Shown one piece after another: positions 10,842 through 41,465 of a DNA stretch of 64,000 bases; within the stretch, counting starts at the first letter, position 1; every line of letters begins with the position of its first letter. The stretch lies in the NCBI GenBank assembly GCA_046757565.1, contig JBHHYN010000003.1, positions 4,009 through 68,008 on the forward strand. The letters are read 5' to 3'. Made by a program: the position numbers and the translations under genes. Below the pieces are notes generated by a model that was given only the letters and a program-made list of their open reading frames with translations, was not told where the DNA came from and ran no database searches. This DNA is from Gammaproteobacteria bacterium. GTDB taxonomy: Bacteria > Pseudomonadota > Gammaproteobacteria > Eutrophobiales > Eutrophobiaceae.

Positions 10842-10848
10842 CGTTCCA

Positions 10849-23135: not shown

Positions 23136-23519
23136 ATGATGAAGAGATTACGCCTTACCTTTGCACTGCTCAGTGTTGTGCCGGTTTTTTGCATGGCCAA
23201 TGATTTTCCAACCTATGATCGCGTTAATTATGTTTTATTTTGCATGGATAAGCTTGGCGGGCCGAGTTTTGAAAATCTGCATACCTGCTCATGCCGGATC
23301 GATGCCATAGCAGACAGGATGCCCTTCGCCGAGTATGATGAGGCAACGATATTCGAACGGGCCCTGCGTATGGGTGGTGAAAAGGGCGGGGTGGTGCGGG
23401 ACAATAAGCGTGCGAAATCGCTGGATAACAAGCTCGCGCAGATCAGTCAACAGGCAGACAGGCAGTGTAAGTTGATTCCGCATATAGAACACCCGCCCCT
23501 GAAAAAAATCGCAAAGTAG
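23136..23519 (+). CDS. Hypothetical secreted Cys-containing protein
   Basis: 127 aa with a signal peptide and a good SD. No family recognised. Confidence 0.5.
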   Translation: MMKRLRLTFALLSVVPVFCMANDFPTYDRVNYVLFCMDKLGGPSFENLHTCSCRIDAIADRMPFAEYDEATIFERALRMGGEKGGVVRDNKRAKSLDNKLAQISQQADRQCKLIPHIEHPPLKKIAK

Positions 23520-24329
23520 AGAACGGCACACCCTTAAAAAGCAGCGGTGATATTAAACGGGATAATAACGATCTTGCCGGCATGTTAGTCATCTCCTCTC
23601 TGTATTTAATGTGCTCCGTATCATTGCACGTTGTCTCGCCGGGTCCGGGCGGCACGCCATTATCCGCCGCTTATTCCTGCAATGACGGGCCATATGTTTT
23701 TTGTGCTCGTTGATGGCCTCTCCGGTTCCAGGGCCATTTTACAGTCATTTCTTCGGTAGTTTGTGTAACTATATGTTAATTAAAGGTTATGTTAAATATA
23801 TTAAATTCAAACCGGGAAAATTTGCCGGCGGGGATGAGGTAGGGATGAATTTCACTTGCGCCGGTAACTGAAATTTCCTAGAATCCAGTTACTTAGATAG
23901 CTGTTTTTTGAAAAATAATTAAAGAAATTCAATAAACATTAAACTACAATCAGAAGATGGACTTTAAAGATTTTTGAGAGGCGGGAATGATTGATAGAGG
24001 CTCGGCGATAAAAAAACAACAATCCTCTATGATTGCTTATCTTTGCTGTTTTCCTTTCGCTACTTCTTTGGCAGGCGACGATGTGCGCCCTGCGGCTGCA
24101 ACCTTAATAGATAGTTGATAGATAATTGCTTCAGTGAATAAGCGTGTGCAATAATGACAGGCATTCATAAATCAATCGGGATTTGTCGGGTATGGTTTTT
24201 TACTGGCAGCGTTACGACTCACAACAGGCTTTCAACTCCCTGGTATCTTTTGATCTCTAGGTATCCGGGGGTTTTTTTATTTAACGTAGAGATCAATCAC
24301 ATGATCAACTAATAATAGAGGAGGAGGTC

Positions 24330-26177
24330 ATGAGTAAATTGTCCTTGAGTAAATGGGTACTTATTGCTCTGGCCCTGGCTGTTCCTGCGTTAGCCTCCGC
24401 GAATGACGAAGTCGCGAGGCTGACGCAGAATCCGAACTACTGGGCCTACCCGGGTGGTGATTACAACAACTGGCGGTATTCAAAGCTTAACCAGATCAAC
24501 AACAGGAATGCTGGCAAGCTGGTGGCCGCCTGGACGTTCTCGACCGGCAGACTGCAGGGCCATGAAGGTGGTCCCCTGGTTTTACCGCCGAGTGCCACGG
24601 GACTGAGTACGGACACACTGTTCATCCATACGTCTTTTCCGAACGATGTGTTCGCCATCAACCTCGATACCCTGGCGCTGGAATGGGTGTATGAGCCGCA
24701 GCAGGACGCCAGCGTTCCCAGCGTCATGTGTTGCGATATCGTCAATCGTGGTCTCAGTTATGCCGATGGCAAGATCTTCCTGCAGCAGGCCGATACCGTC
24801 CTGGTAGCGATTAACGCCAAGACCGGTAAGGCCGTCTGGAAGACCAAGAACGGGGATCCCACGAAGGGCCAGACCAACACCAATGCACCACATCCGATCA
24901 AAGACTATGTCTTTACCGGTATCTCCGGTGCGGAGTTTGGCGTGCGTTGCTGGATGGCCGCCTATCGCATCAAAGATGGCAGCCTGGCCTGGAAGGCCTA
25001 CAGCATGGGTCCGGATTCCGACATCCTGTTCGACCGGCATACCACAACCATGGGTAAGAGAGTCGGCAAGAACTCCAGCTTGAAGACCTGGAAAGGCGAT
25101 CAATGGAAACTGGGCGGCGGTTCCGTCTGGGGCTGGTGGCCGTGGAACAAGAAAGAGAACCTGATGTACTACGGTTCCGGTAACCCCGGCACCTGGAACC
25201 CGGTGGTCCGTCCCGGTGACAACAGATGGTCCATGACCATGTTCGCCCGTGATGTGGATACCGGTATCGCCCGCTGGGTCTACCAGATGACGCCTCACGA
25301 CGAGTGGGACTATGATGGTGTCAACGAGATGATCCTGGCTGATCTCACTGTCAAGGGTAAGAAGCAGAACGTGGTGGTCCATTTTGACCGTAACGGTTTT
25401 GGCTACACCGTGAACAGTGCGACGGGTAAACTGCTGGTTGCTGAGAAGTTCGATCCGGCGGTCAACTGGGCCACGGGCATCGACATGAAGACCGGTAAGC
25501 CAAAACGTGTGGCGAAATACAGCACCGATAGCAACGGTGAAGACGTCGTATCCAAGGATATTTGCCCGGCAGCGTTGGGTACCAAAGACGAGCAGCCGGC
25601 GTCCTACAGCCCGCGTACCGGCCTGTTCTACGTGCCGACTAACCATGTCTGCATGACCTACGAGCCGGTCAGCTATGCGGCGGGTGGTAGCCACTATACG
25701 GCGGGTCAATGGTTTGTGAATGCCAACCTGACCATGTATCCGGCCGGTAATGTCCTGAAAGACGGCACCACCAACATGGGTAACATGATTGCCTGGGATG
25801 CCTCCAAGGGTAAGATCGTCTGGTCTATCCCCGAGCAGTGGTCCGTCTGGAGTGGCGTGCTGTCGACCGCTGGTGACGTGGTCTTCTACGGTACACTCGA
25901 CAGCTATGCCAAGGCCATCGACGCCAAGACCGGCAAGGCGCTCTGGAAGTTCAAGGTGCCTTCCGGCATTATCGGTAACTTCAACACCTGGAGCCATAAA
26001 GGCAAACAGTATGTTGGCGTGCTCTCCGGTATTGGTGGTTGGGCCGGCGCCGTGGTGGCTATCCGCGCCCTGGCGACCGCCCCCGGTGAAGCTGCGCTGG
26101 GTGCCGTCGGTGGTTACCGCGCCCTGAATAACACAGGTCGTCCGGGTGGCGTGCTGATGGTATTCAGCTTGCCGTAA
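24330..26177 (+). CDS. xoxF: PQQ-dependent methanol dehydrogenase, lanthanide-type (XoxF)
   Basis: Signal peptide, vicinal disulfide MCCDIV, W-repeat propeller, and the EWDYDGVNE motif with Asp two residues after the catalytic Asp, which is the XoxF/Ln-ligand signature, not the MxaF DYA. Confidence 0.9.
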
Positions 26178-26219
26178 GACAGTACAGACACAATAAAAGC
26201 GATTTGTAGTCATTACTTC

Positions 26220-26256
26220 GTCCCCGGCATCTCATCGGATGCCGGGGATTTTTATT
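26220..26256 (+). terminator. Rho-independent terminator after xoxF
   Basis: GC stem TCCCCGGCATC..GATGCCGGGGA followed by a TTTTTATT run. Confidence 0.7.
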
Positions 26257-26488
26257 GATAACTACAAGAACTAAAAAATCCTAAATCAGTCTCAACTTGT
26301 CAGATTCCAGTGATTGACGTAATCTCGGCAGGTACTGCGGCGGAAGCAGTGGGTGATAAACACTACAGCACAGCCTGGTGTGGATAACCGCTTCAGGTCA
26401 TGATTCAGATACAGTGTGGGTTAGATATATTTACCTGGGAAAAGCTGCAACAAGCAGGCATTAATTATTTATACGGGAGAATAGACCG

Positions 26489-26920
26489 ATGATATTCAAG
26501 AGTTGTAAATCAATTTTAATTACCATTTTGCTTCTGTTTTCAACAGCTGTTTTGGCTGAAGACCATATCATTGCCGCGCAGGCTACCAGCTTCGCTCCGA
26601 AGATCCTGTTCATCCAGCCGGGTGATACCGTTCAATGGACGCGTATGTCGCCGATCCATGATGCGCAATCGATGGAAGGCCTGATACCTGAAGGCGCCAA
26701 GGGCTGGAAGTTTGCCGTCGGCGAAAACGGCAAAGTGACCCTGGATAAAGAAGGGGTTTATGTCTATAAATGTAATCCCCACTATGCCGTGGGTATGGCC
26801 GGAGCGATCATTGTTGGCAAGGCAACAAACCTGGAGCAGGTCAAGGCGAACGCCACGGGCAGAGCGAAAGGCGTGGTGATCAAGGTTGACCGGGCCCTGG
26901 CAGCCCTGGCCAATAAATAG
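26489..26920 (+). CDS. Pseudoazurin-like type-1 blue copper protein (cupredoxin)
   Basis: Signal peptide and copper ligands (His in SPIHDA; C-x2-H-x4-M in YKCNPHYAVGMAG). By recall it is similar to pseudoazurin (IPEGA, KC.PHYAMGM). Confidence 0.8.
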   Translation: MIFKSCKSILITILLLFSTAVLAEDHIIAAQATSFAPKILFIQPGDTVQWTRMSPIHDAQSMEGLIPEGAKGWKFAVGENGKVTLDKEGVYVYKCNPHYAVGMAGAIIVGKATNLEQVKANATGRAKGVVIKVDRALAALANK

Positions 26921-27030
26921 AAAAACTCATAATAGTGCCTTCAGAATTTATGTTGTTTTCTGGCCCCGTCTCGAAAATAATGGCAATCGGCAGGATCTGC
27001 CGGTTACAGGCGGTGGGGCATGAAAATCTG

Positions 27031-27906
27031 ATGTTACTACCCGGTTTGCCGGCACTTCTCTTTTTGATACTTGCACCGGTTATGGCTCAGGCGCAGCCCC
27101 CCTCCGATAACCCTATCGCCGTGTTAAAGGTGTGTGCAGATCCCTATCTGCTTCCATTTTCCAACAGGAAAAAACTGGGTTATGAGAACAGGATAGCGGA
27201 ATTATTTGCCGCCGAGTTGGGCGCAAAGTTGCAATATACCTTTTTCCCGCAACGTATGGGTTTTATCCGCAATACCTTGCGGGCGGAAGTGAGTAATGGA
27301 TCCTATAAATGTGATCTGGTGATCAGTGCCCCCGCCTATTTTGAACTTGCCGCCACCACACAGGCCTATTACAAGTCCATGTATATGATGGTTTATGTCA
27401 AAGGCAGGGGGCTTGATGAGGTGACCCGGCCGGAACTGCTTCCGGAAGTGGTGCAACGGGGGAAAAGCATCAGGTTCGGTCTTTTTGACCGCGGTCCTGA
27501 ACAGCTCTGGGTCTTTAAAAATAACTTAATGGAATATATGGTGCCTTATGTCTCTCAACCGGGCGCCCTGGATGCCAATCCCGGGATGGATATTTTACAG
27601 GATTTGGTTGACGGTAAAATCGATGTAACCATCGTATGGGGACCGGTTGCCGGGTATTTTGCCAGGCAACATAGGGGTAAGGTCGAACTGGTCATGCTGC
27701 CCTTGCAAAACGATCCGGATGACCCCCAGATGCGATTCGAGTACAAGGTTGCCATGGCGGTCCGTTACGGTGAACCTGCCTGGAAGGAACGGGTCAGCCG
27801 GTTGATTACTGACAACCAGGGAAAGATCGACACCATCCTTAAGGATTATGGTATCCCGCTGTTGCCGCTTGATACAACCAGCCCGCCTGTTCAAGATAAG
27901 GATTGA
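27031..27906 (+). CDS. xoxJ: XoxJ/MoxJ-like periplasmic binding protein (quinoprotein-dehydrogenase-associated SBP)
   Basis: MxaJ/XoxJ family SBP-like sequence with a signal peptide starting at MLLPGLPALLFLILAPVMAQA. The ORF-track start at 26935 is probably an over-extension. Confidence 0.75.
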   Translation: MLLPGLPALLFLILAPVMAQAQPPSDNPIAVLKVCADPYLLPFSNRKKLGYENRIAELFAAELGAKLQYTFFPQRMGFIRNTLRAEVSNGSYKCDLVISAPAYFELAATTQAYYKSMYMMVYVKGRGLDEVTRPELLPEVVQRGKSIRFGLFDRGPEQLWVFKNNLMEYMVPYVSQPGALDANPGMDILQDLVDGKIDVTIVWGPVAGYFARQHRGKVELVMLPLQNDPDDPQMRFEYKVAMAVRYGEPAWKERVSRLITDNQGKIDTILKDYGIPLLPLDTTSPPVQDKD

Positions 27907-27927
27907 TACATTAATTGAAATAGCGTT

Positions 27928-28698
27928 ATGCAGATAAGATATCTATTTTTAACCTTAATGCTTGCCATCGGTCCCTCCCCGGTATTGGCGGATAACAATG
28001 CCGGACCTGATAAGGAGGTTATGACGGAACATATGCCGAATGTCGGCAGATATGGCGAATCCGCTGCGGTAGACCCGGCCAAGTTCAAGTTTTCCACGGC
28101 TGAGGTGGAACTCTGGATGGAGGACCATCTTCATAATATCGACAAGCCTGCCAGGCTCTATTATGCGTTTAACAAGAGCGGCAGTTTCGAGGAGGGATTT
28201 TCGGACTCGGTCTATCTGGATATCCTGGATATAAACAAGGACGGTACAAAAAATGCCAGTCTGAAATTTATGAGTGGCGCGCGTGAACAGCACTTTGCCC
28301 ATGCCGGGAACCTGACACATATAACAGGCAATCCGGTGCTGGGTGTCTACCTGCAAGGTGATGTCAATGAAATGAACCGCCTGACAGAGGGTAGCTGGCG
28401 TTATTTTCAAAAAAGGATTAAATTGGCGCTCGCGAAAACGGCTAAGGTGGATCCGACACGCTTTGAATTCGAAGGGAAAAAGATTGAGGGGGAAGTCATC
28501 ACTCTGATTCCCTATGCCAAGGACCCGAGAAGAAGGCGTTTTGAGAAATTTGCCGACAAGCGATACGAAATTACGCTTTCAGATAGCGTGCCGGGCACCT
28601 TATACCAGATAAAAACCATAGTTCCGGATGGTAATGGCAAAGAACCACTGATTGAAGAGATCTTGACACTTCAGCATGTGGAGTTCCGGGATCGATAA
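27928..28698 (+). CDS. Hypothetical periplasmic protein encoded downstream of xoxJ
   Basis: Signal peptide and 256 aa. No recognisable family, and no heme-binding CxxCH. Confidence 0.5.
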   Translation: MQIRYLFLTLMLAIGPSPVLADNNAGPDKEVMTEHMPNVGRYGESAAVDPAKFKFSTAEVELWMEDHLHNIDKPARLYYAFNKSGSFEEGFSDSVYLDILDINKDGTKNASLKFMSGAREQHFAHAGNLTHITGNPVLGVYLQGDVNEMNRLTEGSWRYFQKRIKLALAKTAKVDPTRFEFEGKKIEGEVITLIPYAKDPRRRRFEKFADKRYEITLSDSVPGTLYQIKTIVPDGNGKEPLIEEILTLQHVEFRDR

Positions 28699-33164: not shown

Positions 33165-33986
33165 TTATACACCACTTATCATGATTAAAATTTCCCCCTT
33201 GCCATCCACTGAAATGTCCCCGGCATAGCGCTGTACCTCGGGCCCAAATTCCCTGAAAAATCTGAAGCGCCTGCCCATGCCGGCGATCTGCTTGTAGAAG
33301 AGCCTCAGGAACTCCATCTTGAGCTTCCCGCAACTGCTGAATGCCGGGGACAGTTTCAATGGTCTTTTCCCGAGAACAATCGTCCCGCGCTTCATGCCAT
33401 AACCGGCATGATTATCAGTTCTCCCGAGAACCACTATGGTCCCGGCTATCATGCGGCTGCCGGTGTAGGATCCGGCCTGGCCGAGGACGATGATCATCCC
33501 CCGGCGCATGCGATCCCCCGTCCGGTCACCGGCATTGCCCTCTATCGTGACAGCTCCACCCGACATGCCATGTGCCTTATGCACCAGGGCCGCACCGGTA
33601 AAATTACCGGCGTCACCGGAAATAGCTATTCTGCCGCCCGACATGCCGGTTGCAGTCCAGTCCCCGGCATCGCCCTGAACGTTAATCCGGCCGCCGCTCA
33701 TATCCTCGCCGAGGTAATCGCCGGCATGGCCCCGTACCTCTATGATACCACGGCTCATATCATGACCGATGCGGGACAAGCCCCCGGAACAACGGCGTAA
33801 CTGGATAAATTCGGAATCTTCGCCAGTCACATCGAACAACTCTCTGACGGCAATGCGGTGTCCACCCGCGTTCAGTTTGACAGCCCGGATAGCGTTAATG
33901 TTCCGTCCCGCCAGCTTGTCAGGCGTCAACGGGGAGAGATCGATGTTACCATCCGTCCTTTTTTTGAGAGTAAATACCAAGGGCAT
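33165..33986 (-). CDS. fhcC: Formyltransferase/hydrolase complex subunit C (FwdC-like beta-helix)
   Basis: Glycine-rich GxxGxxxG beta-helix repeats typical of FwdC/FhcC. Its ATG overlaps the ftr stop (TAATG). Confidence 0.8.
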   Translation of the reverse strand: MPLVFTLKKRTDGNIDLSPLTPDKLAGRNINAIRAVKLNAGGHRIAVRELFDVTGEDSEFIQLRRCSGGLSRIGHDMSRGIIEVRGHAGDYLGEDMSGGRINVQGDAGDWTATGMSGGRIAISGDAGNFTGAALVHKAHGMSGGAVTIEGNAGDRTGDRMRRGMIIVLGQAGSYTGSRMIAGTIVVLGRTDNHAGYGMKRGTIVLGKRPLKLSPAFSSCGKLKMEFLRLFYKQIAGMGRRFRFFREFGPEVQRYAGDISVDGKGEILIMISGV

Positions 33987-34882
33987 TATTTTAATATGTC
34001 CCATAGATGGAAATGATAGGGACCCAGTTTGCCACCGAAATTACCGGCACTGATACGGTAGATACCCTTATCGGGACCATGCTGACACACAGCCATGACC
34101 CCCGCATACATGGCCTCCTTGATCGCCTCTTCATTCAGTCCGTCGATGACGATTTCCAGCACAGAGCCAATCTCGTCGGTCAGTTCGCTGTGGACCTGCC
34201 CTTTCAGGGTCGGGCAAAAGGCCTCATTGGTAGATGCCGGCATAAATTTATATTTGGCGCCGATTTTGGATCCTGAACCGACGATTCCGCCCGGAAAAGT
34301 CGTGACGGCGCCGTGGACCCTGCGAATCGCTTTAACGGCTTTTTCACAGGCACTCAGACCATGTCTGGAGGTCTTTGCCAGGACCAGAAAATTCCCTCCG
34401 CCGATGGCGGGGACGATCCCCGTCGTTTCCTCACAAAGAAATTCACCGTGCATCACCGGAATGCGCCAGTAACGGATGCCGTTTATCTTTTTCGATATCT
34501 GATAACCGTCACCGAAATATCTGAGGCTTTTCCCCAACGAGATCATGTGATCGCTATGACTGCCGGCAAAACAGGCGCTGGTTGCGGTGGTCATTACCGA
34601 TTGTCCCACACGTCTCTTTACCTGCTCCTGCAGTTGCGATGTCGACATGGCGAACATGATGACGGCGATTCCGGGCCGCCCGTCGGGCGTCTCATCGGGA
34701 TCGAGTTCACGCTCAATATCCGCTTCACAACCACAGGCGATGACCGAAGAGGCAAAGCCCGTCAACGAGTTTGCCGCCCGGTAGGCCCACTTTATGGTCA
34801 TGGCGGTAATGATGAGGCGCGTGGCCTTCATGGGGAAGGCCTCGGCGAAGCTGTTATCGATTTTTACGCCGTTGATTTCCAT
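33986..34882 (-). CDS. fhcD: Formylmethanofuran:tetrahydromethanopterin formyltransferase (Ftr/FhcD), copy 1
   Basis: 298 aa Ftr family protein, about half identical by eye to the second copy at 40566-41465. Confidence 0.8.
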   Translation of the reverse strand: MEINGVKIDNSFAEAFPMKATRLIITAMTIKWAYRAANSLTGFASSVIACGCEADIERELDPDETPDGRPGIAVIMFAMSTSQLQEQVKRRVGQSVMTTATSACFAGSHSDHMISLGKSLRYFGDGYQISKKINGIRYWRIPVMHGEFLCEETTGIVPAIGGGNFLVLAKTSRHGLSACEKAVKAIRRVHGAVTTFPGGIVGSGSKIGAKYKFMPASTNEAFCPTLKGQVHSELTDEIGSVLEIVIDGLNEEAIKEAMYAGVMAVCQHGPDKGIYRISAGNFGGKLGPYHFHLWDILK

Positions 34883-34887
34883 TGCTG

Positions 34888-36549
34888 TTACTTTTGATGG
34901 CAGGGGTGGACACTGATCGATTCCCTTCCATATCCCATTAACTCGTCATCACTGATTCTGAAATTCCCGGGAGTGACGGTGAGATAGCGGTTAAAGAACT
35001 GTTTCAGGTGATGTTCAATGCCGGGCTCATAATCAGGCTTGACGGTGTGGGTAATCCCGGCCGGCGTTCTTAACAATCTGCCGTTGCGTACTATTAATCC
35101 CCCGTTTTTAAAGACATATTCAGGCCGGGCAAACATCTTTTCCCGGTTTGCCATATCTTTATAAACAGTAATATCTGCGTTGGCGCCGGTGCCAAGATGC
35201 CCGCAGTCCCGCAGCCCCAGACTCTTTGCCGGTGCTGCACGTGTCATGATGGCAATCTCATATAAGGAATATTCCCGGTCGAGACCGCCAAGGGTGGTAA
35301 CGCTCTGCGCCTGTCTGTTGATGGAATGCAGCATGTCGTTACGAAATGATCGGTCCATTAACAGGCGGATCAGGTGGGGATAACTGGTGAACGGCGCGCC
35401 GTTTGGATGATCGGTAGTAAGAAAAATCCGCCAGGGATCATCAGCCATAAGAAAAATTTCGAGCCCGATACACCATTGCAAGGCATTCACAAAATTCCTG
35501 TCACGGTAGCGGAAAGGTACTACACCACAGCCGGCATCACACTCGATATCCATACTGACCCATTTTTTGGGGTGGGCATGCACACGACCCTTGAATTGCA
35601 TCATGGTGTCGCCGGAGGCAGTAACGGTCTGGCCGAACATTATTTGCCCCACATCCATGGAAATGGCGCTATTTTTATTGAATGCCTCGCTAATCTCCGC
35701 TGCGGCAGAGGAAAAGTTTTTATCGCCCTCGGTCCCATAACTGTGAAACTGGATATGGGTCAGATGCATCGGCACGCCGTCCACTGCCTGCATGGTTTCC
35801 AGGGTGGTTTTCATATTTCCGGGGACGCCCAGATTGCAACCGTGAACGTGTAACGGATGGGGCACGCCTAACGCCTGTAATGCCCGGCTGAGCGATGTCA
35901 GGATCATCCGCGGAGTTACCCCGTAGTAACTGTTCTTGTCATCCAGGTCCAGTTTGCGCTGGTTGAATTTAAAGGCATTAATGCCGCCGGGATTGACTAC
36001 TTTGATCCCGATTGCCTGGGTCGCATGCATGGTCCATGCAACATAGTCTTTGATAAGCTCCTGGTCTTCATTCCTGGCCAGCATGCGCAGCAGGAAATCA
36101 TCGTTGCCGAGCAGGGCGTAGGCGCCTGTATCGATGATAGGGATGTCAGCCATTTCCATGTGGGCCTGGCGGGCATTGCTTGGCAGCATGGCGGGTTCAA
36201 AGCAGGTGGTGTATCCCATTTCCGCGTAACGGTAGCCGGTGCTGAATGTAGATGGGGCAGCATGGCCGCATCCGGCTCTAGTGATATGCGTGCGCCGGAT
36301 TAAATTCGCCTGATGGTCCTCGGGAAGCAGCATCCTGGCAATATTAATCTTACCGCCACCGATATGGGTGTGGATATCGATAGCGCCGGCCATCACCACT
36401 CTGTCCGTCACATCGATGACTTTATCCGGCCCCCTGTTTTTGCCCGGTTTACGTACTATGCGGCCATCGCGGATATAGATATCACGCCGTTTACCGTTGA
36501 CCCCATGCATGGGGTCATACACTGTTCCACCCGCGAGTTTTATCAGCAT
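34888..36549 (-). CDS. fhcA: Formyltransferase/hydrolase complex subunit A (FwdA-like amidohydrolase)
   Basis: Amidohydrolase metal-binding motif IDIHTHIGGG; 553 aa. Confidence 0.85.
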   Translation of the reverse strand: MLIKLAGGTVYDPMHGVNGKRRDIYIRDGRIVRKPGKNRGPDKVIDVTDRVVMAGAIDIHTHIGGGKINIARMLLPEDHQANLIRRTHITRAGCGHAAPSTFSTGYRYAEMGYTTCFEPAMLPSNARQAHMEMADIPIIDTGAYALLGNDDFLLRMLARNEDQELIKDYVAWTMHATQAIGIKVVNPGGINAFKFNQRKLDLDDKNSYYGVTPRMILTSLSRALQALGVPHPLHVHGCNLGVPGNMKTTLETMQAVDGVPMHLTHIQFHSYGTEGDKNFSSAAAEISEAFNKNSAISMDVGQIMFGQTVTASGDTMMQFKGRVHAHPKKWVSMDIECDAGCGVVPFRYRDRNFVNALQWCIGLEIFLMADDPWRIFLTTDHPNGAPFTSYPHLIRLLMDRSFRNDMLHSINRQAQSVTTLGGLDREYSLYEIAIMTRAAPAKSLGLRDCGHLGTGANADITVYKDMANREKMFARPEYVFKNGGLIVRNGRLLRTPAGITHTVKPDYEPGIEHHLKQFFNRYLTVTPGNFRISDDELMGYGRESISVHPCHQK

Positions 36550-36553
36550 GCGT

Positions 36554-37828
36554 TTACAGGGATTGATGGATTCTGGTCAGTATATCGCTGACGCTGTGTC
36601 TCCCTGTCTGCCGGATTTTTTTCAACGGCAGACAGACGACGTTGTCGGTACGAAACAGGTTCCCCACATGGTCCAGTCCGGGTGTGGCAATGGGGATATA
36701 CACCTCGGCATCGAGGGCGATCTTTTTCGATGGGCGTGTCAGCATGATGGCGGGAATATTTGTCTGAGGCGGTTGCAGTCCCTTATCGAAACTGGATATC
36801 CAGAGCAGGGCATCGGCCTCCGTTTTTCCCAGCACCGCCTTTTCCGAAAAATTATAGGGATCATATTCCGGGTAACCCTCTGTGTAACTGATCCGTGACG
36901 GGTATCCGCTTTGCCAGGTACAGACATTAACAAAAGAGGTTCCGCCGTTATCGCCCCCCAGCGCCAGGCCGGCACAACGGGACATCTGATTGAGTTCCTT
37001 GAGCAATTCGCAGATCGTCTGGATGGTTAATTCCGCATGGGGTTGCAGCAGTTCACCGGGTGCCCAGATGAACACCCCGTAGCTGGCTTGTTTGATACGT
37101 TCAGATACTCTCTTCAAGGCGCCCAGCTTCCTGCCGGTGATGGAATCCGATTTTATTTCGCAACCCTTTACCAGGGCGCGCAGTACAGCAACGGTTTCGC
37201 CCAGGGATTCGTCAGTGCAATGGATAACTGTCGCTTTTCCAGCGCCAGGATTCAACCCCGGTCGGGTTTTCAAATTATGCCCTAAATATATGATTTCCCG
37301 ATTATTTTTCTTTAAACCGGAGCATGAATACTGGTTCCATATAAAGCGTTCGAACAATCTCGGGAAATTAGAATTGCCATCGGTGCCTATGAAGACAATC
37401 ACATCGGCCCGGTTTTTAAGTTCTGCCAGGGTGGTCATAACCCATCCGCCGGATTGTAATGCCAGGGCGTTATTGATGGCCCCATCGGCATGACTGTGGT
37501 CGAGAATTGCGCCACTGGACTCAGCCAACAGCATCGCTGCGCGACTGCCGGAAACATCCGTGCCAAGACCGGTAATAATGGGTTGACGGGCATCGCGCAA
37601 TATTTCTGCGGCATGTGTGACGGCTTCATCCAGCGAGGTTTGTTTGCCGTGTATATGGGGAGGAACGTCAGAATCGGCAGTTTCAAAACCACGCACCGCC
37701 TTCGCGCAGCCATTACGTTTGACGGTGAGTTTACCGTCCCGATTCCTTAACACCAGGTCATCGCATAACAGACTACAGAAGGGACAGGTGACCTCTTCGA
37801 AGATTTTTGATTGACTGCTGGATGACAT
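36554..37828 (-). CDS. fhcB: Formyltransferase/hydrolase complex subunit B (FwdB-like, lacking the Mo/W-ligating cysteine)
   Basis: FwdB-like N-terminus (CPFCSLLCDD). The position that aligns to VCHGPS in the paralog reads LDHSHADG, so the cofactor-ligating Cys is absent. Confidence 0.8.
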   Translation of the reverse strand: MSSSSQSKIFEEVTCPFCSLLCDDLVLRNRDGKLTVKRNGCAKAVRGFETADSDVPPHIHGKQTSLDEAVTHAAEILRDARQPIITGLGTDVSGSRAAMLLAESSGAILDHSHADGAINNALALQSGGWVMTTLAELKNRADVIVFIGTDGNSNFPRLFERFIWNQYSCSGLKKNNREIIYLGHNLKTRPGLNPGAGKATVIHCTDESLGETVAVLRALVKGCEIKSDSITGRKLGALKRVSERIKQASYGVFIWAPGELLQPHAELTIQTICELLKELNQMSRCAGLALGGDNGGTSFVNVCTWQSGYPSRISYTEGYPEYDPYNFSEKAVLGKTEADALLWISSFDKGLQPPQTNIPAIMLTRPSKKIALDAEVYIPIATPGLDHVGNLFRTDNVVCLPLKKIRQTGRHSVSDILTRIHQSL

Positions 37829-37896: not shown

Positions 37897-39279
37897 TTAA
37901 TCCAGCAAGGCCAGCATCTCTTCGACACTAGTATACTTCTCGCGAGGTTTCTCATTAGCTGTCCCGTGCTCGATTTCACTTTTATCGATTTTTTTCCAGT
38001 CGGAAAAATTGATATAACGAATTCCTTTTTTATCAAGAATGCTGTAAATCCCTTCGGCGCCACATTTCTTTTCACCGGAATCCAGTAGCGCGATATCTTC
38101 TAACAGGTGGGTGACGGTTTCCACACTATCTGCGCGGTTCGTGCCGATAATACCGGTAGCCCCCCGTTTAATCCATCCGGCAGTATACAACCGGGGAATA
38201 AAGGCATTATCTGTGCCAATGATGCGGCCGTTTTCGTTAGGGAATCGCCCCTGTTTTTCATCAAACGGGACACCGGGCATGGCGATGCCACGATAGCCGA
38301 TACTCCTGAACACGATACCGGTTTCGAGCGCACAGGTTTCGCCGCTCCCCCGGGCGGATTGCCGGAATGGCTCGCCACTCAGTTGGTTTCTTTCCAGAAT
38401 AATCTTCTCCACCCGGTCGCCGCCGGTAATCTCTTTCGGGCTTTTCAGGAAAGTAAAGTGGCAGGTGCGTTGTTTTGCCGGGTCAATCTCCCGCCGGGAA
38501 AATCCCTGGAAGAGTTCATAGATTTTTCTGTTTCCCGCGTGATTCTTGTCGGCTAGTTCGGTCTCGCTTTCAGGGTTCAACGCCAGTTCATTTGCTGCTA
38601 CAAACGGATTGCAATCCTGCAACTCACCAAATTCTTTCAACTCCTTCGATGTAAATTTTGCCTGCGCCGGCCCGCGTCTGCCTATGACATATATATTACG
38701 TATTTTGCTTGCAGCCAGGCAGTCCAGGGCATGTTGCGCGATATCGGTGTGTTTGAGTTCATCGATGGTTTTGGCCAGGATGCGCGCCACGTCAGCGGCG
38801 ACATTCCCCTGCCCGATGATCACGGCATTTTCATGGGATAGATCAAAATTCCGGTCGCGATAATCCGGGTGGCCGTTATACCAGCCGACAAATTCCGTGG
38901 CCGTATGACTGCCGGGAAGATCTTCTCCAGGTATTCCCAGTTTGCGGTCGGTCTCGGCGCCACAAGTAAAAACAACGGCATGGTGACTGCTGGTCAAATC
39001 ATCAATGCTGATATCCCTGCCCACGGTGACATTGCCGATATAATTGAATTCAGGCGATTCCGCTATTTTTGCGTATAACTGAATCGCCTGCTTCAGTTTC
39101 TGATGATCCGGCGCCACCCCGCTGCGTACCAGACCATAGGGACTGGGCAGCCGTTCAAGCATATCTACTTTCACTGAAATATCGGATCGGATCAGTGCTT
39201 CGGTGGCATAGAACCCACTTGGTCCACTGCCGACAATTGCGACAAGCAAGGGGTTTTGCTCAGTACCGAGTTGACTCAT
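37897..39279 (-). CDS. fpr: FprA-type ferredoxin-NADP+ reductase (adrenodoxin-reductase-like FAD/NAD(P) oxidoreductase)
   Basis: FAD-binding motif VAIVGSGPSGFY and NADP-binding motif AVIIGQGNVAADVARIL; 460 aa. Confidence 0.8.
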   Translation of the reverse strand: MSQLGTEQNPLLVAIVGSGPSGFYATEALIRSDISVKVDMLERLPSPYGLVRSGVAPDHQKLKQAIQLYAKIAESPEFNYIGNVTVGRDISIDDLTSSHHAVVFTCGAETDRKLGIPGEDLPGSHTATEFVGWYNGHPDYRDRNFDLSHENAVIIGQGNVAADVARILAKTIDELKHTDIAQHALDCLAASKIRNIYVIGRRGPAQAKFTSKELKEFGELQDCNPFVAANELALNPESETELADKNHAGNRKIYELFQGFSRREIDPAKQRTCHFTFLKSPKEITGGDRVEKIILERNQLSGEPFRQSARGSGETCALETGIVFRSIGYRGIAMPGVPFDEKQGRFPNENGRIIGTDNAFIPRLYTAGWIKRGATGIIGTNRADSVETVTHLLEDIALLDSGEKKCGAEGIYSILDKKGIRYINFSDWKKIDKSEIEHGTANEKPREKYTSVEEMLALLD

Positions 39280-39398
39280 ACAGGTTCACTATTTTGACGC
39301 AGAAACACGCACAAAGGACGACAAAAACGAAAAAAAATTGATAGAGGTGGGAGATTAGCAGTTCCATACCTCTTTTTTTTGCCAATGGGTAAACGGGA

Positions 39399-39704
39399 TT
39401 AGAATCCCAGTTCTGCTTTTCTCTCCTCGGCGCCGGGCAATGGTTCCATCTGGTCCGAACATACGGGTAATCCGGGAGCGCGATCAGCATTTATCTGTAT
39501 CCATGCTTGCTGTTCTTCCGGTAAATCGTCTTCTTCGTAGATCGCCTGGACCGGACATTCGGGTATACAGGCGCTGCAGTCGATACAGACATCGGGGTCG
39601 ATATACAGCATCTCGTCGTCATAATGGAAGCACTCTACCGGACAGACCGTTACACAATCCGTGAAACGGCATTTATTACAGTTCTCGGTTACGACTGTGG
39701 TCAT
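39399..39704 (-). CDS. fdxA: 7Fe ferredoxin (FdxA, Azotobacter type)
   Basis: MTTVVTENCNKCRFTDCVTVCPVECF...CIDCSACIPECP fits the 3Fe-4S plus 4Fe-4S ferredoxin pattern. The ATG at 39704 is preceded by AGGAGG; the longer ORF-track frame looks like an over-extension. Confidence 0.85.
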   Translation of the reverse strand: MTTVVTENCNKCRFTDCVTVCPVECFHYDDEMLYIDPDVCIDCSACIPECPVQAIYEEDDLPEEQQAWIQINADRAPGLPVCSDQMEPLPGAEERKAELGF

Positions 39705-39759
39705 TGTCCCCTCCTGATTAATTGATGTTTGTTCGGGTAATGCTATTTTTAACAAGGTG

Positions 39760-40569
39760 TTAACCCTTGTAAAGTAAAATCTCACCCCGGTTAAGTTCGA
39801 TGGCGTCGCCACTCCAACGCTGATACGCCCCACTGATCTGTTCTTCCCTGAGCGGCAGGTCCAATCCCTGCAAGTACAGCAGATATATCCGTAAATAGGC
39901 CGGTTGGTAGGTACATGCGTAACTGAAGGTCGGTAAAAGTTCAGTAGCATGCATGCTGATGATGGTCCCCCTCTTCATGCCTGCGCCGCTCCTGTTGCCC
40001 AATTCGCCCAGGACAATAATCGTCCCCGCCAGCATATTGACCCCGGTGAAATCACCGCTGTTACCGCCAATAACGATGATGCCATTACGCATGCCGTGAC
40101 CGATTTCATTGCGTGCATTACCATGGACGATGATCTCTCCACCCTGTATCCCGATAGTGCTGCCACGGTAGGCGCTACCAATCATGTGTCCGGCATCTCC
40201 CTTGATCTGGATGCGCCCGCCTGACATATCCGGTGCCACCCAGTCACCCACATTGCCTGTCACGACGATCTCGCCGCCGGACATGCCTGCACCCAGGTGG
40301 GCGCCGACGTTGCCATTAACATGCAGATGTCCCGATGACATACCGGCGCCGATATATTTTACATTGGTAAGGTCCCCGTGCAGCCGGGTCGTACCGTTCG
40401 ATGTTCCTTCAACATTGAAGAAATCGCCCACTGCCGCCTGTTCATTGCCATGCTGTACTGATAAAGACTCGATTTCGGCGGGACTCAGGCCAGCCACTCT
40501 GTCAGGAGAAATATTTTCCGCTTCCAACGGCACCTCCGGGGCCGTGTGTAACGTCAGCTCCAGACTCAT
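39760..40569 (-). CDS. fwdC: Formylmethanofuran dehydrogenase subunit C, copy 2
   Basis: The same Gly-rich beta-helix repeat family as fhcC. ATGA overlap with the upstream ftr copy. Confidence 0.8.
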   Translation of the reverse strand: MSLELTLHTAPEVPLEAENISPDRVAGLSPAEIESLSVQHGNEQAAVGDFFNVEGTSNGTTRLHGDLTNVKYIGAGMSSGHLHVNGNVGAHLGAGMSGGEIVVTGNVGDWVAPDMSGGRIQIKGDAGHMIGSAYRGSTIGIQGGEIIVHGNARNEIGHGMRNGIIVIGGNSGDFTGVNMLAGTIIVLGELGNRSGAGMKRGTIISMHATELLPTFSYACTYQPAYLRIYLLYLQGLDLPLREEQISGAYQRWSGDAIELNRGEILLYKG

Positions 40570-41465
40570 GGCGCCTGTCCTTCCAACAAGCTGTGCAGTT
40601 CAATTTTGAACTGGCCGAGACCGCCACCGTAATTACCGGCCGATATCTGCCGGATGCCGGGTTTGGCTGCGGCATAGAGCCCACGCTGCATGGCCGCCCG
40701 CACTGCCTCTTCATCCAGACCGTCGATAACGATTTCCAGTACGCAATTTACCCCCGGCCCGAGACTGGAATCCTGCCTGATGCCACGCAGGGTAGGGCAG
40801 TAGGCATCATTGGTTGAAGCAATCAGGGATTTATATTTCGAACCGACTTTACTGCCGCTGCGGACGACTCCATCGGGAAAGGGCAGAATGATACCGGCTA
40901 TCTCCTGCATGGCCTTGACCGCTGCATTGGCGGATCGCAGTGTCGTTTTCAGGTCTTTCCCCAGCAGCAGCAGATTTCCTCCACCTACAGCCGGCTGTAT
41001 ATTGAAGCGTTCATCCACCAGGAACTCGCCGTCCATGACCGGGATACGCCAGAAACGCCTGCCGTTTAACTGTTTACTTCCCTGGAAACCGTCACCGAAA
41101 TAACGCAACTGGCCACCGACCACGACGGGATGCTCCGATTCCAGTCCGTTGTAACAGGCCGTTGTCGGGCAGGTCATGACGCATTGGCCGATGCGCTCGA
41201 CCAGGCGTTTCCCGGCACTTTGCGCATCCATGGCAAACAGCAGCACGCTGATGCCAGGGCGCTTGTCAGGCGTTTCCTCCGCCGGCATCTCCCGTTCGAT
41301 GCCTGCCTCGCATTTACAGCCAATAACGGATGTTGCAAAACCGGTGATGGAGCGGGCCGCCGCCAGGGCCCATTGCCGGGTCTCGGCCGTGATGACGATG
41401 CGTGCACCCCACATTTTGAAGGCCTCTGCAAAGGTATCGACAATTTCTGTGGATTTTATTTTCAT
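40566..41465 (-). CDS. ftr: Formylmethanofuran:tetrahydromethanopterin formyltransferase, copy 2
   Basis: 299 aa Ftr paralog, translationally coupled on both sides. Confidence 0.8.
   Translation of the reverse strand: MKIKSTEIVDTFAEAFKMWGARIVITAETRQWALAAARSITGFATSVIGCKCEAGIEREMPAEETPDKRPGISVLLFAMDAQSAGKRLVERIGQCVMTCPTTACYNGLESEHPVVVGGQLRYFGDGFQGSKQLNGRRFWRIPVMDGEFLVDERFNIQPAVGGGNLLLLGKDLKTTLRSANAAVKAMQEIAGIILPFPDGVVRSGSKVGSKYKSLIASTNDAYCPTLRGIRQDSSLGPGVNCVLEIVIDGLDEEAVRAAMQRGLYAAAKPGIRQISAGNYGGGLGQFKIELHSLLEGQAP

What the first reader, a model, noticed from the sequence alone, without database searches (positions are those of the whole stretch)
24330..28698. xoxF locus where a cupredoxin sits in the position usually held by the cytochrome cL gene
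The XoxF gene carries the DYD lanthanide signature. It is followed by its own terminator. Next comes a pseudoazurin-like blue copper protein with a signal peptide, the C-x2-H-x4-M ligands and an upstream His. Then comes xoxJ and an unknown periplasmic protein. Canonical loci are xoxF-xoxG(cytochrome cL)-xoxJ, and no CxxCH heme motif occurs in any ORF of this locus. A cupredoxin as the physiological electron acceptor of a lanthanide methanol dehydrogenase would be a distinct electron-transfer arrangement.
Basis: partly seen in the sequence, partly recalled or inferred. Interest (0 to 1): 0.6.

Follow-up and report, generated by a model that had tools for sequence, protein, structure and literature searches.

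The report
Pseudoazurin replaces cytochrome in xoxF operon
In a lineage of uncultured, mostly marine Gammaproteobacteria, the gene slot next to the lanthanide methanol dehydrogenase gene xoxF that normally holds its haem electron acceptor (xoxG) holds a blue-copper pseudoazurin gene instead, which makes this copper protein a testable candidate for the still-debated electron acceptor of gammaproteobacterial XoxF.

Summary
Window 24330-28698 encodes a XoxF5-type lanthanide methanol dehydrogenase, a strong terminator-like hairpin, a signal-peptide pseudoazurin with all four type-1 copper ligands, XoxJ, and an unannotated periplasmic protein. No c-type cytochrome gene occurs anywhere in the 64 kb.

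Comparison shows more than a local oddity. Thirty related loci, some redundant, carry xoxF-cupredoxin(-xoxJ-Unk256). They include about 21 GTDB species representatives. The next-closest XoxF genes (52 metagenome loci) carry a XoxG-family cytochrome in exactly that slot, within the same gene frame. Cupredoxin-linked XoxFs form one clade. One outlier suggests a second, independent swap.

Positional displacement of xoxG by a pseudoazurin is therefore well supported. Direct electron transfer from XoxF to the copper protein is inferred, not shown. One genome with the cluster also encodes an unlinked XoxG homologue. XoxG-like cytochromes also sit beside membrane-tethered pseudoazurin paralogues in two related loci. 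The pseudoazurin could therefore act one step downstream of a cytochrome.

I found no paper describing this arrangement. Verdict: a new variant of a known kind, of moderately high interest.

The parts
23136..23519 (+). Unk127: small secreted Cys-containing protein of unknown function, a recurrent member of XoxF5 clusters
   Evidence: It matches no Pfam, NCBIfam or PDB entry. tblastn finds it upstream of xoxF in most cupredoxin-type loci. It also occurs in many XoxG-type loci, sometimes between xoxF and xoxG, as in L132 and L147.
24330..26177 (+). xoxF: XoxF5-type lanthanide/PQQ methanol dehydrogenase with signal peptide, Cys-Cys pair and WDYDG motif
   Evidence: TIGR03075 scores 661 bits. Best PDB matches are 6DAM at 807 bits and 6OC5 at 778 bits, against about 525-560 bits for MxaF. 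It carries two insertions specific to the cupredoxin-linked clade, PPSATGLS at residues 86-93 and AAGGS at 450-454. Both are absent from all 52 XoxG-linked XoxFs.
26220..26257 (+). Terminator-like or mRNA-stabilising hairpin (13-bp stem, 4-nt loop, T-run) after xoxF
   Evidence: It was found by the pattern scan. The RNAfold energy of the hairpin is -24.5 kcal/mol. It is conserved in position but not in sequence in all 24 cupredoxin-type loci tested.
26489..26920 (+). Soluble periplasmic pseudoazurin-type cupredoxin in the xoxG slot
   Evidence: It matches Pfam PF00127. TIGR02375 scores 90 bits, below the cut-off. Pseudoazurins are the best PDB hits. The ligands H57, C95, H98 and M103 are invariant. 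All 37 xox-linked homologues keep C-x2-H-x4-M. The AF2 model has pLDDT 84.9, and its top 27 fold matches are pseudoazurins.
26950..27906 (+). xoxJ, the periplasmic binding-protein-like XoxF accessory protein. The start is uncertain: ATG 26950 as called on the Logan contig, or ATG 27031 just before the signal peptide
   Evidence: TIGR03871 scores 240 bits against a cut-off of 212. The best PDB hit is XoxJ 6ONP, E 1e-36, ahead of MxaJ at 7e-14. The sequence was read.
27928..28698 (+). Unk256: conserved secreted protein of unknown function, last gene of the cupredoxin-xoxJ unit
   Evidence: No family matches it. A homologue search found 269 proteins, all unnamed or called hypothetical. It follows xoxJ in both cupredoxin-type and several XoxG-type loci. 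The AF2 model has pLDDT 82.7. It shows a weak resemblance to the LolA/LprG superfamily (Foldseek E 2e-5, but TM only 0.3-0.4).

Best explanation
The locus is a lanthanide-dependent methanol-oxidation module in which a soluble pseudoazurin has displaced the XoxG cytochrome as the operon-encoded periplasmic redox partner of XoxF.

Proposed mechanism:
- XoxF (PQQ plus a lanthanide) oxidises methanol in the periplasm.
- The reduced PQQ passes single electrons to the type-1 copper of the pseudoazurin.
- The pseudoazurin carries them on to the respiratory chain. This may go through the lipoprotein-tethered pseudoazurin paralogues found in the same genomes, or directly to a terminal oxidase.
- Formaldehyde is handled by the adjacent H4MPT pathway and formate dehydrogenase genes.

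xoxF is probably made as an abundant message of its own, ending at a conserved hairpin. The genes for the cupredoxin, XoxJ and Unk256 form a tight downstream unit.

Shown here: gene identities, copper ligands, pseudoazurin fold, absence of any cytochrome c gene in the 64 kb, and the clade-wide slot replacement.

Inferred: direct XoxF-to-copper electron transfer, the onward route, and iron sparing in marine habitats as the selective reason.
For: - Identity of the parts.
- There is no CxxCH ORF in the 64-kb window. In the 24 syntenic loci scanned, covering up to 10 kb either side, the only credible CxxCH ORF is an unrelated cytochrome in L086; three other hits look like shadow ORFs.
- The order xoxF-Cup-xoxJ(-Unk256) recurs in about 21 GTDB species-representative loci, found by searching with the cupredoxin. 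It recurs again in all 8 metagenome loci that were found independently by XoxF similarity, have XoxF 66-74% identical to the window, and have enough downstream DNA.
- At 57-66% XoxF identity, 52 loci carry a cytochrome in the same slot. All 51 of these that were tested match TIGR03874, the XoxG family.
- Several XoxG-type loci share the flanking Unk127 and Unk256 genes, so the frame is the same and only the slot gene differs.
- In the XoxF tree, 29 of 30 cupredoxin-linked sequences form one clade. L086 nests among XoxG-linked XoxFs, suggesting an independent second swap.
- The cupredoxin is more tightly tied to xoxJ than to anything else. The gaps are 30-110 nt, and L079 keeps Cup-xoxJ-Unk256 even without xoxF.
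- Literature: XoxG acceptors fall into four unrelated groups, so the partner is evolutionarily replaceable (PMC5874918). The acceptor of gammaproteobacterial XoxF5 is considered unresolved (PMC6277846).
- From established knowledge, not tested here: cupredoxins are the dedicated acceptors of other periplasmic quinoprotein dehydrogenases, for example amicyanin for methylamine dehydrogenase.
Against: - No biochemical or expression data exist for these uncultured organisms.
- A conserved strong hairpin and a 150-500 nt AT-rich spacer separate xoxF from the cupredoxin gene. Co-transcription with xoxF is therefore not assured.
- At least one genome with the cluster (GCA_012103475.1) also encodes an unlinked XoxG homologue, P0173.
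- In the closest well-studied relatives, the gammaproteobacterial methanotrophs, the XoxF5 acceptor gene is unlinked anyway (PMC8527097, PMC5874918).
- XoxG-like cytochromes sit beside tethered pseudoazurin paralogues in L009 and L049. This hints that a cytochrome-to-pseudoazurin step exists in this group.
- Much of the surrounding region (waaA, FDH, fhc) is also syntenic across the main clade. Part of the order conservation may therefore reflect shared ancestry rather than selection.
- The XoxF positions that distinguish the cupredoxin clade are not shared by the independent case L086, which is cupredoxin-like at 0 of 20 positions. They give no convergent support.
Confidence: 0.55

Rival explanations
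1. The pseudoazurin is the second carrier, not the first. An unlinked XoxG-family cytochrome still takes electrons from XoxF, as XoxG4 does in methanotrophs. The operon-encoded pseudoazurin plays the role of cytochrome cH and shuttles electrons from that cytochrome to the oxidase. On this view xoxG moved out of the cluster and the cupredoxin gene moved in.
For: - P0173 (GKR93_04565, on WLWS01000001.1) lies in the same MAG as cupredoxin locus L050. It is 45% identical (E 3e-26) to the slot XoxGs of L124 and L153.
- L049 has a lipoprotein cytochrome 51% identical to slot XoxGs, convergent with two pseudoazurin genes. L009 has a XoxG-like cytochrome about 1 kb upstream of the tethered pseudoazurin that is the closest relative of the window's cupredoxin.
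- Unlinked xoxG is the rule in gammaproteobacterial methanotrophs (PMC8527097, PMC5874918).
- Pseudoazurins classically substitute for small class-I cytochromes c (established knowledge; PMC12423496).
Against: - P0173 scores only 37 bits on TIGR03874 against a cut-off of 162, barely above its c550/c551 scores. It lies among unrelated catabolic genes.
- No member of that cytochrome family was listed on the two megabase-scale contigs that carry the cluster, of 1,442,423 and 3,519,297 bp. The check matched contig lengths against the listed hits and is a weak test.
- Genes for second-step carriers such as cytochrome cH are not normally placed inside mxa or xox clusters, whereas first acceptors are (established knowledge).
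- The swap occupies exactly the xoxG slot.
Confidence: 0.28
2. The cupredoxin is a general periplasmic electron carrier or copper-handling protein. Its position beside xoxF is a historical accident kept by genome synteny, and it has no specific role in methanol oxidation.
For: - Related pseudoazurins are widespread in Methylophaga and other Gammaproteobacteria in unrelated contexts.
- In the cupredoxin tree, xox-linked and unlinked tethered forms interleave.
- The flanking housekeeping genes are syntenic too.
- A terminator-like hairpin separates the gene from xoxF.
Against: - The core xoxF-Cup-xoxJ order persists down to 60% XoxF identity and 33% cupredoxin identity, where the flanks are no longer shared (L080, L086, L087).
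- The gene sits tightly against xoxJ, a Xox-specific accessory gene.
- The slot is precisely the one held by xoxG in sister lineages.
- The same replacement appears to have happened a second time, in L086.
Confidence: 0.1
3. The cupredoxin serves XoxF maturation rather than turnover, working with XoxJ. For example, it might oxidise the active-site Cys-Cys pair or set the PQQ redox state during assembly.
For: - It is tightly coupled to xoxJ, which has been proposed to aid XoxF activation (for its identity; the proposed role is established knowledge).
- L079 keeps Cup-xoxJ-Unk256 without an adjacent xoxF.
Against: - There is no precedent for such a role.
- The protein has the standard electron-shuttle pseudoazurin architecture, with intact type-1 copper ligands.
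- Sister clusters have an electron acceptor, not a maturation factor, in this slot.
Confidence: 0.05

Closest known systems
Canonical xoxF-xoxG-xoxJ clusters (XoxF with a dedicated c-type cytochrome XoxG; M. extorquens structures 6OC5, 6ONQ, 6ONP)
   Same: The enzyme is the same XoxF5 type and XoxJ is the same. In the nearest metagenomic relatives the flanking Unk127 and Unk256 genes are the same too. The gene order matches slot for slot.
   Different: The slot gene encodes a haem-free type-1 copper protein instead of a TIGR03874 cytochrome. No CxxCH ORF exists in the 64-kb window.
Gammaproteobacterial methanotroph xoxFJ with unlinked XoxG4 (Methylomonas sp. LW13, Methylococcus, M. alcaliphilum)
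   Same: These have the closest solved XoxF (6DAM, M. buryatense) and belong to the same class of bacteria. In both cases no cytochrome gene sits in the cluster. The acceptor question is open there.
   Different: The methanotroph clusters have nothing between xoxF and xoxJ (PMC8527097). Here a pseudoazurin gene is inserted and conserved across a clade.
Amicyanin (mauC) as dedicated acceptor of methylamine dehydrogenase; azurin as acceptor of aromatic amine dehydrogenase and of quinohaemoprotein alcohol dehydrogenase (own knowledge, not tested here)
   Same: A small periplasmic cupredoxin is encoded with, or used by, a periplasmic quinoprotein dehydrogenase of C1 or alcohol metabolism.
   Different: Those enzymes use TTQ, or PQQ plus an internal haem. 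No cupredoxin partner is documented for a haem-free PQQ/lanthanide methanol dehydrogenase. The protein here is pseudoazurin-like (E 1e-22), not amicyanin-like (E about 3e-4).
Classical pseudoazurins of denitrifiers and methylotrophs (A. faecalis, A. cycloclastes, Paracoccus, M. extorquens AM1 1PMY, H. denitrificans 3EF4)
   Same: The fold, the C-terminal helices and the H/C/H/M ligand set are the same, at 29-39% identity.
   Different: Those proteins donate to nitrite or nitrous-oxide reductases and are not encoded in methanol dehydrogenase clusters. The score on the NCBIfam pseudoazurin equivalog model is below its cut-off. No denitrification genes lie nearby.

Membership tests
XoxF (lanthanide-dependent PQQ methanol dehydrogenase, XoxF5 clade) | Membership of the PQQ methanol/ethanol dehydrogenase family | tested here: met
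   TIGR03075 scores 661 bits against a cut-off of 480. The Pfam PQQ domain also matches.
XoxF (lanthanide-dependent PQQ methanol dehydrogenase, XoxF5 clade) | Extra lanthanide-coordinating Asp (D-Y-D in place of the D-Y-A of MxaF) and the vicinal Cys-Cys | tested here: met
   WDYDG and MCCD are present and align with the same motifs in XoxF 6DAM.
XoxF (lanthanide-dependent PQQ methanol dehydrogenase, XoxF5 clade) | Closer to characterised XoxF5 enzymes than to MxaF or to ExaF/PedH | tested here: met
   6DAM scores 807 bits and 6OC5 778 bits. The XoxF of SolV scores 594, MxaF enzymes about 525-560, and PedH about 300.
XoxF (lanthanide-dependent PQQ methanol dehydrogenase, XoxF5 clade) | Lanthanide-dependent methanol oxidation activity | not testable with these tools
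   This needs the purified enzyme.
Pseudoazurin (type-1 copper cupredoxin) | Four type-1 copper ligands: an upstream His plus C-x2-H-x4-M | tested here: met
   H57, C95, H98 and M103 are invariant in 20 homologues. The motif is kept in all 37 xox-linked homologues.
Pseudoazurin (type-1 copper cupredoxin) | Cupredoxin beta-sandwich with the pseudoazurin-specific C-terminal helices | tested here: met
   The AF2 model has pLDDT 84.9 and helices at 115-121 and 124-141. Its top 27 Foldseek PDB hits are pseudoazurins, with target-normalised TM-scores of 0.71-0.79.
Pseudoazurin (type-1 copper cupredoxin) | Score above the curated NCBIfam equivalog threshold (TIGR02375) | tested here: not met
   The score is 90 bits against a cut-off of 109.85. 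It is therefore a divergent pseudoazurin-like protein, not an equivalog of the classical nitrite-reductase donor.
Pseudoazurin (type-1 copper cupredoxin) | Periplasmic location | tested here: met
   The N-terminal sequence MIFKSCKSILITILLLFSTAVLA/ED reads as a signal peptide. This was judged by eye; no signal-peptide predictor was available.
XoxJ | Quinoprotein-dehydrogenase-associated periplasmic binding-protein family, closest to XoxJ | tested here: met
   TIGR03871 scores 240 bits against a cut-off of 212. The MoxJ model TIGR03870 scores only 77 against 258. The PDB XoxJ 6ONP matches at E 1e-36 and MxaJ at 7e-14.
XoxG / cytochrome cL in the locus | c-type haem-binding CxxCH motif in a secreted protein encoded beside xoxF | tested here: not met
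   No real CxxCH ORF exists in 64 kb. In the 24 syntenic loci scanned, the only credible one is an unrelated cytochrome in L086; three other CxxCH ORFs look like shadows.
Dedicated cupredoxin acceptor of a quinoprotein dehydrogenase (amicyanin-type arrangement) | Cupredoxin gene conserved inside the dehydrogenase gene cluster | tested here: met
   Thirty loci have this arrangement. The XoxFs linked to it form one clade, and sister XoxFs have xoxG in the same slot.
Dedicated cupredoxin acceptor of a quinoprotein dehydrogenase (amicyanin-type arrangement) | Direct, specific electron transfer from the dehydrogenase to the cupredoxin | not testable with these tools
   This needs kinetics with purified proteins. 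No complex modelling was available.
Dedicated cupredoxin acceptor of a quinoprotein dehydrogenase (amicyanin-type arrangement) | Absence of an alternative dedicated cytochrome acceptor in the genome | tested here: inconclusive
   Whole genomes could not be scanned. One MAG with the cluster has an unlinked XoxG homologue, P0173. None was seen on two megabase-scale contigs, by contig-length matching.

The most novel reading that the evidence does not exclude
A widespread lineage of uncultured Gammaproteobacteria, found mostly in marine water, hydrothermal-plume, sediment and host-associated metagenomes, runs lanthanide-dependent methanol oxidation with a haem-free first step. XoxF hands electrons directly to a type-1 copper pseudoazurin that displaced the XoxG cytochrome. 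The displacement arose at least twice and may be an iron-sparing adaptation. This would add a fifth, non-cytochrome class of XoxF acceptor. It would also point to copper proteins as candidates for the unresolved XoxF5 partner in other Gammaproteobacteria.
Probability: 0.5. Interest if true: 0.72.

Novelty: new variant of a known kind. Interest (0 to 1): 0.62.

Why it matters
XoxF enzymes are the most widespread methanol dehydrogenases in nature and the founding example of lanthanide biochemistry. Their physiological electron acceptors are nevertheless poorly settled. The known XoxG cytochromes fall into four unrelated groups (PMC5874918). For gammaproteobacterial XoxF5, the literature states that an alternative partner must exist (PMC6277846).

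A clade-wide, slot-exact replacement of xoxG by a pseudoazurin gives a concrete candidate that can be expressed and tested. If it is confirmed:
- It would show direct coupling of a PQQ/lanthanide centre to type-1 copper.
- It would link methanol oxidation to copper rather than iron supply in the sea.
- It would change how xoxF-bearing metagenome bins are scored for a complete methanol-oxidation chain, because pipelines that look for xoxG would call these incomplete.

The comparison also flags two unannotated genes, Unk127 and Unk256, as recurrent members of XoxF5 clusters.

Tried and rejected
- Looking up the 99%-identical NCBI protein P0001 to recover its 78-kb MAG contig failed. The truncated product is not on record.
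- I tried to show that XoxG is present or absent genome-wide. As a proxy, I searched with the XoxG-like cytochrome of L009 and matched locus-tag prefixes and contig lengths. This gave one positive co-occurrence (GKR93) and no match for the 1.44-Mb and 3.52-Mb contigs. The result is suggestive only.
- Comparing the charge and pI of xox-linked and unlinked pseudoazurin domains showed no consistent difference.
- I tested for convergent XoxF residues in the independent cupredoxin case L086. It is cupredoxin-like at 0 of 20 signature positions. The two insertions specific to the cupredoxin clade therefore cannot yet be tied to partner choice.
- Unk127 matches nothing.
- The cytochrome ORF near L086 is not XoxG-like.
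- Seven literature searches paired xoxF or methanol dehydrogenase with pseudoazurin, cupredoxin, azurin, blue copper protein, plastocyanin or amicyanin. None found a description of this arrangement. Absence from the open-access corpus is not proof of absence.
- The promoter-like hit at 26404-26431 is no better than chance: 6 sites were found against 6.7 expected. It is not claimed.

Full report
**What is in the window**

The stretch 23136-28698 on the + strand holds five ORFs and one structured spacer.
- The ORF at 24330-26177 (615 aa) belongs to the PQQ methanol/ethanol dehydrogenase family. TIGR03075 scores 661 bits against a cut-off of 480.
- Against solved structures it is closest to the lanthanide enzymes XoxF of Methylomicrobium buryatense (6DAM, 807 bits) and XoxF1 of M. 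extorquens (6OC5, 778 bits).
- It is well separated from calcium MxaF enzymes (about 525-560 bits) and from PedH-type ethanol dehydrogenases (about 300 bits).
- The WDYDG motif with the extra lanthanide-binding Asp, and the vicinal Cys-Cys, align with those of 6DAM.

**The hairpin after xoxF**

- About 43 nt after the stop codon lies a 13-bp hairpin with 8 G-C pairs, followed by a T-run (26220-26257).
- I checked all 24 related cupredoxin-type loci that have a complete xoxF 3' end. Each has a hairpin of -19 to -32 kcal/mol plus a T-run, at or near offsets 19-58 nt into the spacer measured from the xoxF end.
- The stems differ in sequence between loci, so the structure, not the sequence, is conserved.
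- The rest of the spacer is long (150-500 nt) and mostly AT-rich.

**The cupredoxin**

- ORF 26489-26920 (143 aa) has an N-terminal signal peptide and a Pfam Copper-bind domain. Its best PDB matches are pseudoazurins, E 1e-22.
- His57, Cys95, His98 and Met103 are invariant in an alignment of 20 homologues. The C-x2-H-x4-M motif is kept in all 37 xox-linked homologues I collected.
- An AlphaFold model (pLDDT 84.9) has the beta-sandwich plus the two C-terminal helices typical of pseudoazurin. Its 27 best Foldseek hits in the PDB are all pseudoazurins.
- It does not reach the NCBIfam equivalog threshold for pseudoazurin, at 90 bits against 109.85. It is best called a divergent pseudoazurin-type cupredoxin.

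**XoxJ and the unknown protein**

- The next ORF, ending at 27906, is XoxJ. TIGR03871 scores 240 bits against a cut-off of 212. The best PDB hit is XoxJ 6ONP at E 1e-36, ahead of MxaJ.
- The last ORF (27928-28698, 256 aa) matches no family. Its model resembles LolA/LprG-type half-barrels only weakly.

**No cytochrome c gene, and the wider context**

- In the whole 64 kb only two CxxCH strings occur in ORFs of at least 70 aa. Both are antisense to real genes, mch and pabB.
- The surroundings form a methylotrophy island. It holds an NAD-linked formate dehydrogenase, two fhc/fwd-like gene sets, and H4MPT/methanofuran pathway genes including fae and mch.
- There are no denitrification genes.

**Is it more than a local accident?**

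A search with the cupredoxin found a near-identical protein in an NCBI Gammaproteobacteria MAG and a family of 137-156-aa homologues.
- Three context look-ups showed that the short forms sit in the same order, PQQ dehydrogenase - cupredoxin - binding protein - about 255-aa unknown. Longer forms of 200-246 aa lie in unrelated contexts.
- A scan of one genome per GTDB species with the cupredoxin alignment returned 80 loci.
- tblastn with the window's proteins showed the order xoxF-Cup-xoxJ(-Unk256) in about 21 of them. All are uncultured bins, most labelled Gammaproteobacteria. A few carry labels (Gemmatimonadota, Planctomycetota, Enterobacteriaceae) that look like binning or naming errors.
- In these loci XoxF is 60-77% identical to the window's protein and the cupredoxin 33-64%.
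- Methylophaga species have related pseudoazurins, both soluble and membrane-anchored, but not beside xoxF.

**The independent test**

I scanned JGI metagenomes with XoxF rather than the cupredoxin as the query and then examined what follows xoxF in each locus.
- Loci whose XoxF is 66-74% identical to the window's, and which have enough downstream DNA (L097, L099, L100, L101, L103, L104, L106, L108), all have a cupredoxin next. Where the contig continues, xoxJ follows.
- Loci at 57-66% identity have, in the same place, an ORF of 134-273 aa with a CxxCH motif, followed by xoxJ.
- All 51 such ORFs tested match TIGR03874, the methanol-metabolism c-type cytochrome (XoxG) family, with a best E-value of 1e-80.
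- Several of these XoxG-type loci also carry Unk256 after xoxJ and Unk127 before or just after xoxF (L124, L147, L153, L158, L166, L174).
- The frame Unk127 - xoxF - [slot] - xoxJ - Unk256 is therefore shared. Only the slot gene differs.
- Counting every locus fetched that has a near-full-length XoxF match: 30 have the cupredoxin, 52 have the cytochrome, 6 have neither immediately adjacent, and 14 are too short to tell.
- In a neighbour-joining tree of XoxF, 29 of the 30 cupredoxin-linked sequences form one clade, on the opposite side of the midpoint root from the cytochrome-linked ones. The exception, L086 (a Granulosicoccaceae MAG whose cupredoxin is only 33% identical), nests among cytochrome-linked XoxFs. 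This suggests a second, independent replacement.
This is a non-orthologous displacement of xoxG by a pseudoazurin gene.

**How it most likely works**

The gene encoded in that slot in all sister clusters is the dedicated first electron acceptor. The simplest reading is that the pseudoazurin took over that job.
- XoxF oxidises methanol in the periplasm, and the reduced PQQ passes single electrons to the type-1 copper.
- The reduced pseudoazurin delivers them to the respiratory chain.
- Formaldehyde goes into the adjacent H4MPT and formate dehydrogenase route.

The literature makes this plausible. XoxG cytochromes fall into four unrelated groups that cannot substitute for one another, so the partner has been replaced repeatedly (PMC5874918). 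For gammaproteobacterial XoxF5 the acceptor is regarded as unresolved. XoxG4 is unlinked, is not lanthanide-regulated, and does not track XoxF (PMC5874918, PMC6277846).

From my own knowledge, not tested here: cupredoxins already serve as dedicated acceptors for other periplasmic quinoprotein dehydrogenases, such as amicyanin for methylamine dehydrogenase and azurin for aromatic amine dehydrogenase.

The bins come mostly from marine water, hydrothermal plumes, sediments and host-associated samples. A copper-for-haem swap would fit iron sparing, but this is inference.

**What argues for caution**

- The conserved hairpin and long spacer mean that the cupredoxin, xoxJ and Unk256 genes may be transcribed separately from xoxF. 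The cupredoxin is in fact tied more tightly to xoxJ than to xoxF. The gaps are 30-110 nt, and L079 keeps Cup-xoxJ-Unk256 with no xoxF upstream.
- The same MAGs often also carry a lipoprotein-tethered pseudoazurin paralogue elsewhere (five MAGs). In a tree of the copper domains, linked and tethered forms interleave. Pseudoazurins are therefore general periplasmic carriers in this group. In Methylophaga, pseudoazurin is among the most highly expressed genes during methanol-fed growth (PMC5918138).
- In L009 and L049 a small cytochrome lies beside the tethered pseudoazurin gene. These cytochromes are XoxG relatives. They score 34 and 84 bits on TIGR03874, and the L009 cytochrome matches XoxG 6ONQ at E 5e-4. 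The L049 protein is 51% identical to slot XoxGs.
- One member of this stand-alone cytochrome family, P0173 (locus tag GKR93_04565 on WLWS01000001.1), belongs to the same MAG as cupredoxin locus L050 (WLWS01000002.1; Unk256 homologue GKR93_06345). It is 45% identical to the slot XoxGs of L124 and L153.
- So at least one genome with the cluster still has a XoxG homologue. A chain XoxF -> XoxG-like cytochrome -> pseudoazurin cannot be excluded.
- Against that, P0173 scores barely higher on the XoxG model than on c550/c551 models, and it lies among unrelated catabolic genes. No member of that family was listed on the two megabase-scale contigs that carry the cluster. That check is weak, since it rests on contig lengths among the 120 listed hits.
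- I could not scan complete genomes.

**Other checks**

- Cupredoxin-linked XoxFs share two insertions, PPSATGLS at residues 86-93 and AAGGS at 450-454, plus a handful of substitutions. All are absent from all 52 cytochrome-linked XoxFs. The independent case L086 lacks them too, so they may be phylogenetic rather than partner-specific.
- Charge and pI do not separate linked from unlinked copper domains.

**Comparison with what is known, and novelty**

- The parts are familiar: XoxF5, XoxJ and a pseudoazurin-type cupredoxin.
- The arrangement is not familiar. Seven full-text searches paired xoxF or methanol dehydrogenase with pseudoazurin, cupredoxin, azurin, blue copper protein, plastocyanin or amicyanin. 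None found a paper that describes a cupredoxin in a xox cluster or proposes one as XoxF acceptor. The corpus is open-access only.
- I rate this a new variant of a known kind: a lanthanide methanol dehydrogenase module with the acceptor slot filled by a copper protein.

**Confidence and interest**

- Positional displacement: high confidence.
- Pseudoazurin as the direct acceptor: about 0.55.
- Pseudoazurin as second carrier behind an unlinked cytochrome: about 0.28.
- Incidental linkage or a maturation role: the remainder.
- Interest: about 0.6. The finding bears on an acknowledged open question and can be tested directly with recombinant proteins, but it rests on genomic context alone.

Noticed in passing
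window 23136-23519 and 27928-28698; also L124, L132, L147, L153, L158, L166, L174: Two unannotated secreted proteins, Unk127 and Unk256, recur in XoxF5 clusters whether the slot holds XoxG or the cupredoxin. They appear to be undescribed accessory genes of the xox module. Unk256 has a weak LolA/LprG-like fold, and Unk127 matches nothing.
   Followed up: partly
window 33165-37828 (-) and 37897-44677 (-): There are two paralogous formylmethanofuran dehydrogenase / formyltransferase-hydrolase gene sets (subunits C, D, A, B). The second has a longer B subunit (503 aa, 509 bits on TIGR03129, with molybdopterin-enzyme-like matches). A ferredoxin-like ORF and a GltD-like NAD(P)-binding oxidoreductase lie next to it. 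It may therefore be a redox-active Fmd/Fwd-type enzyme rather than the usual hydrolytic Fhc complex.
   Followed up: no
L006-L015, L019, L023 (lipoprotein forms); L029-L085 (Methylophaga forms): Pseudoazurin domains are fused to a lipobox or an N-terminal transmembrane helix plus a long acidic or Pro/Ala-rich linker (200-309 aa). These look like membrane-tethered pseudoazurins. Five MAGs carry both a tethered copy and the xox-linked soluble copy. In a tree, the two kinds interleave.
   Followed up: partly
L009 8218-8682 (+); L049 10537-11295 (-); P0121-P0240: A family of small c-type cytochromes, some stand-alone and some lipoprotein-tethered, is distantly related to XoxG (TIGR03874 at 34-84 bits, below the cut-off). 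It is widespread in uncultured Gammaproteobacteria. Two members lie beside tethered pseudoazurin genes, and one lies in the same MAG as a cupredoxin-type xox cluster.
   Followed up: partly
window XoxF residues 86-93 (nt about 24585-24608) and 450-454 (nt about 25677-25691): The insertions PPSATGLS and AAGGS are conserved in 86-96% of cupredoxin-linked XoxFs. They are absent from all 52 XoxG-linked XoxFs and from L086. They could be docking-surface loops, but their location on the structure was not determined.
   Followed up: partly
L086 (OZ244967.1, Granulosicoccaceae MAG) 8014-11338: This locus has xoxF-cupredoxin-xoxJ, but its XoxF groups with XoxG-linked enzymes and its cupredoxin is only 33% identical to the window's. 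This is probably an independent replacement of xoxG. A non-XoxG cytochrome c gene lies about 6 kb upstream.
   Followed up: partly
L108 2352-3497; L079 10001-12117; L093 4470-10771: Three variants of the module were seen. L108 has two tandem cupredoxin genes after xoxF. L079 has Cup-xoxJ-Unk256 without xoxF upstream and with a transposase nearby. L093 has an IS110-family transposase inserted between xoxF and the cupredoxin, on an IS-rich 3.5-Mb contig.
   Followed up: no
L011, L022 (Gemmatimonadota label); L023, L061 (Planctomycetota label); L015, L021, L025, L042 (Enterobacteriaceae label); L035 (Klebsiella pneumoniae label): Several contigs carrying pseudoazurin genes of this family, some of them within the xox cluster, are filed under unrelated phyla or under Enterobacteriaceae or Klebsiella in public MAG records. 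These look like binning or naming errors.
   Followed up: no
window 26178-26488 and the equivalent spacers in 24 loci: The hairpin after xoxF keeps its position and strength while its stem sequence changes between lineages. This fits selection for a 3' structure, either a terminator or an mRNA stabiliser, on the xoxF message.
   Followed up: partly
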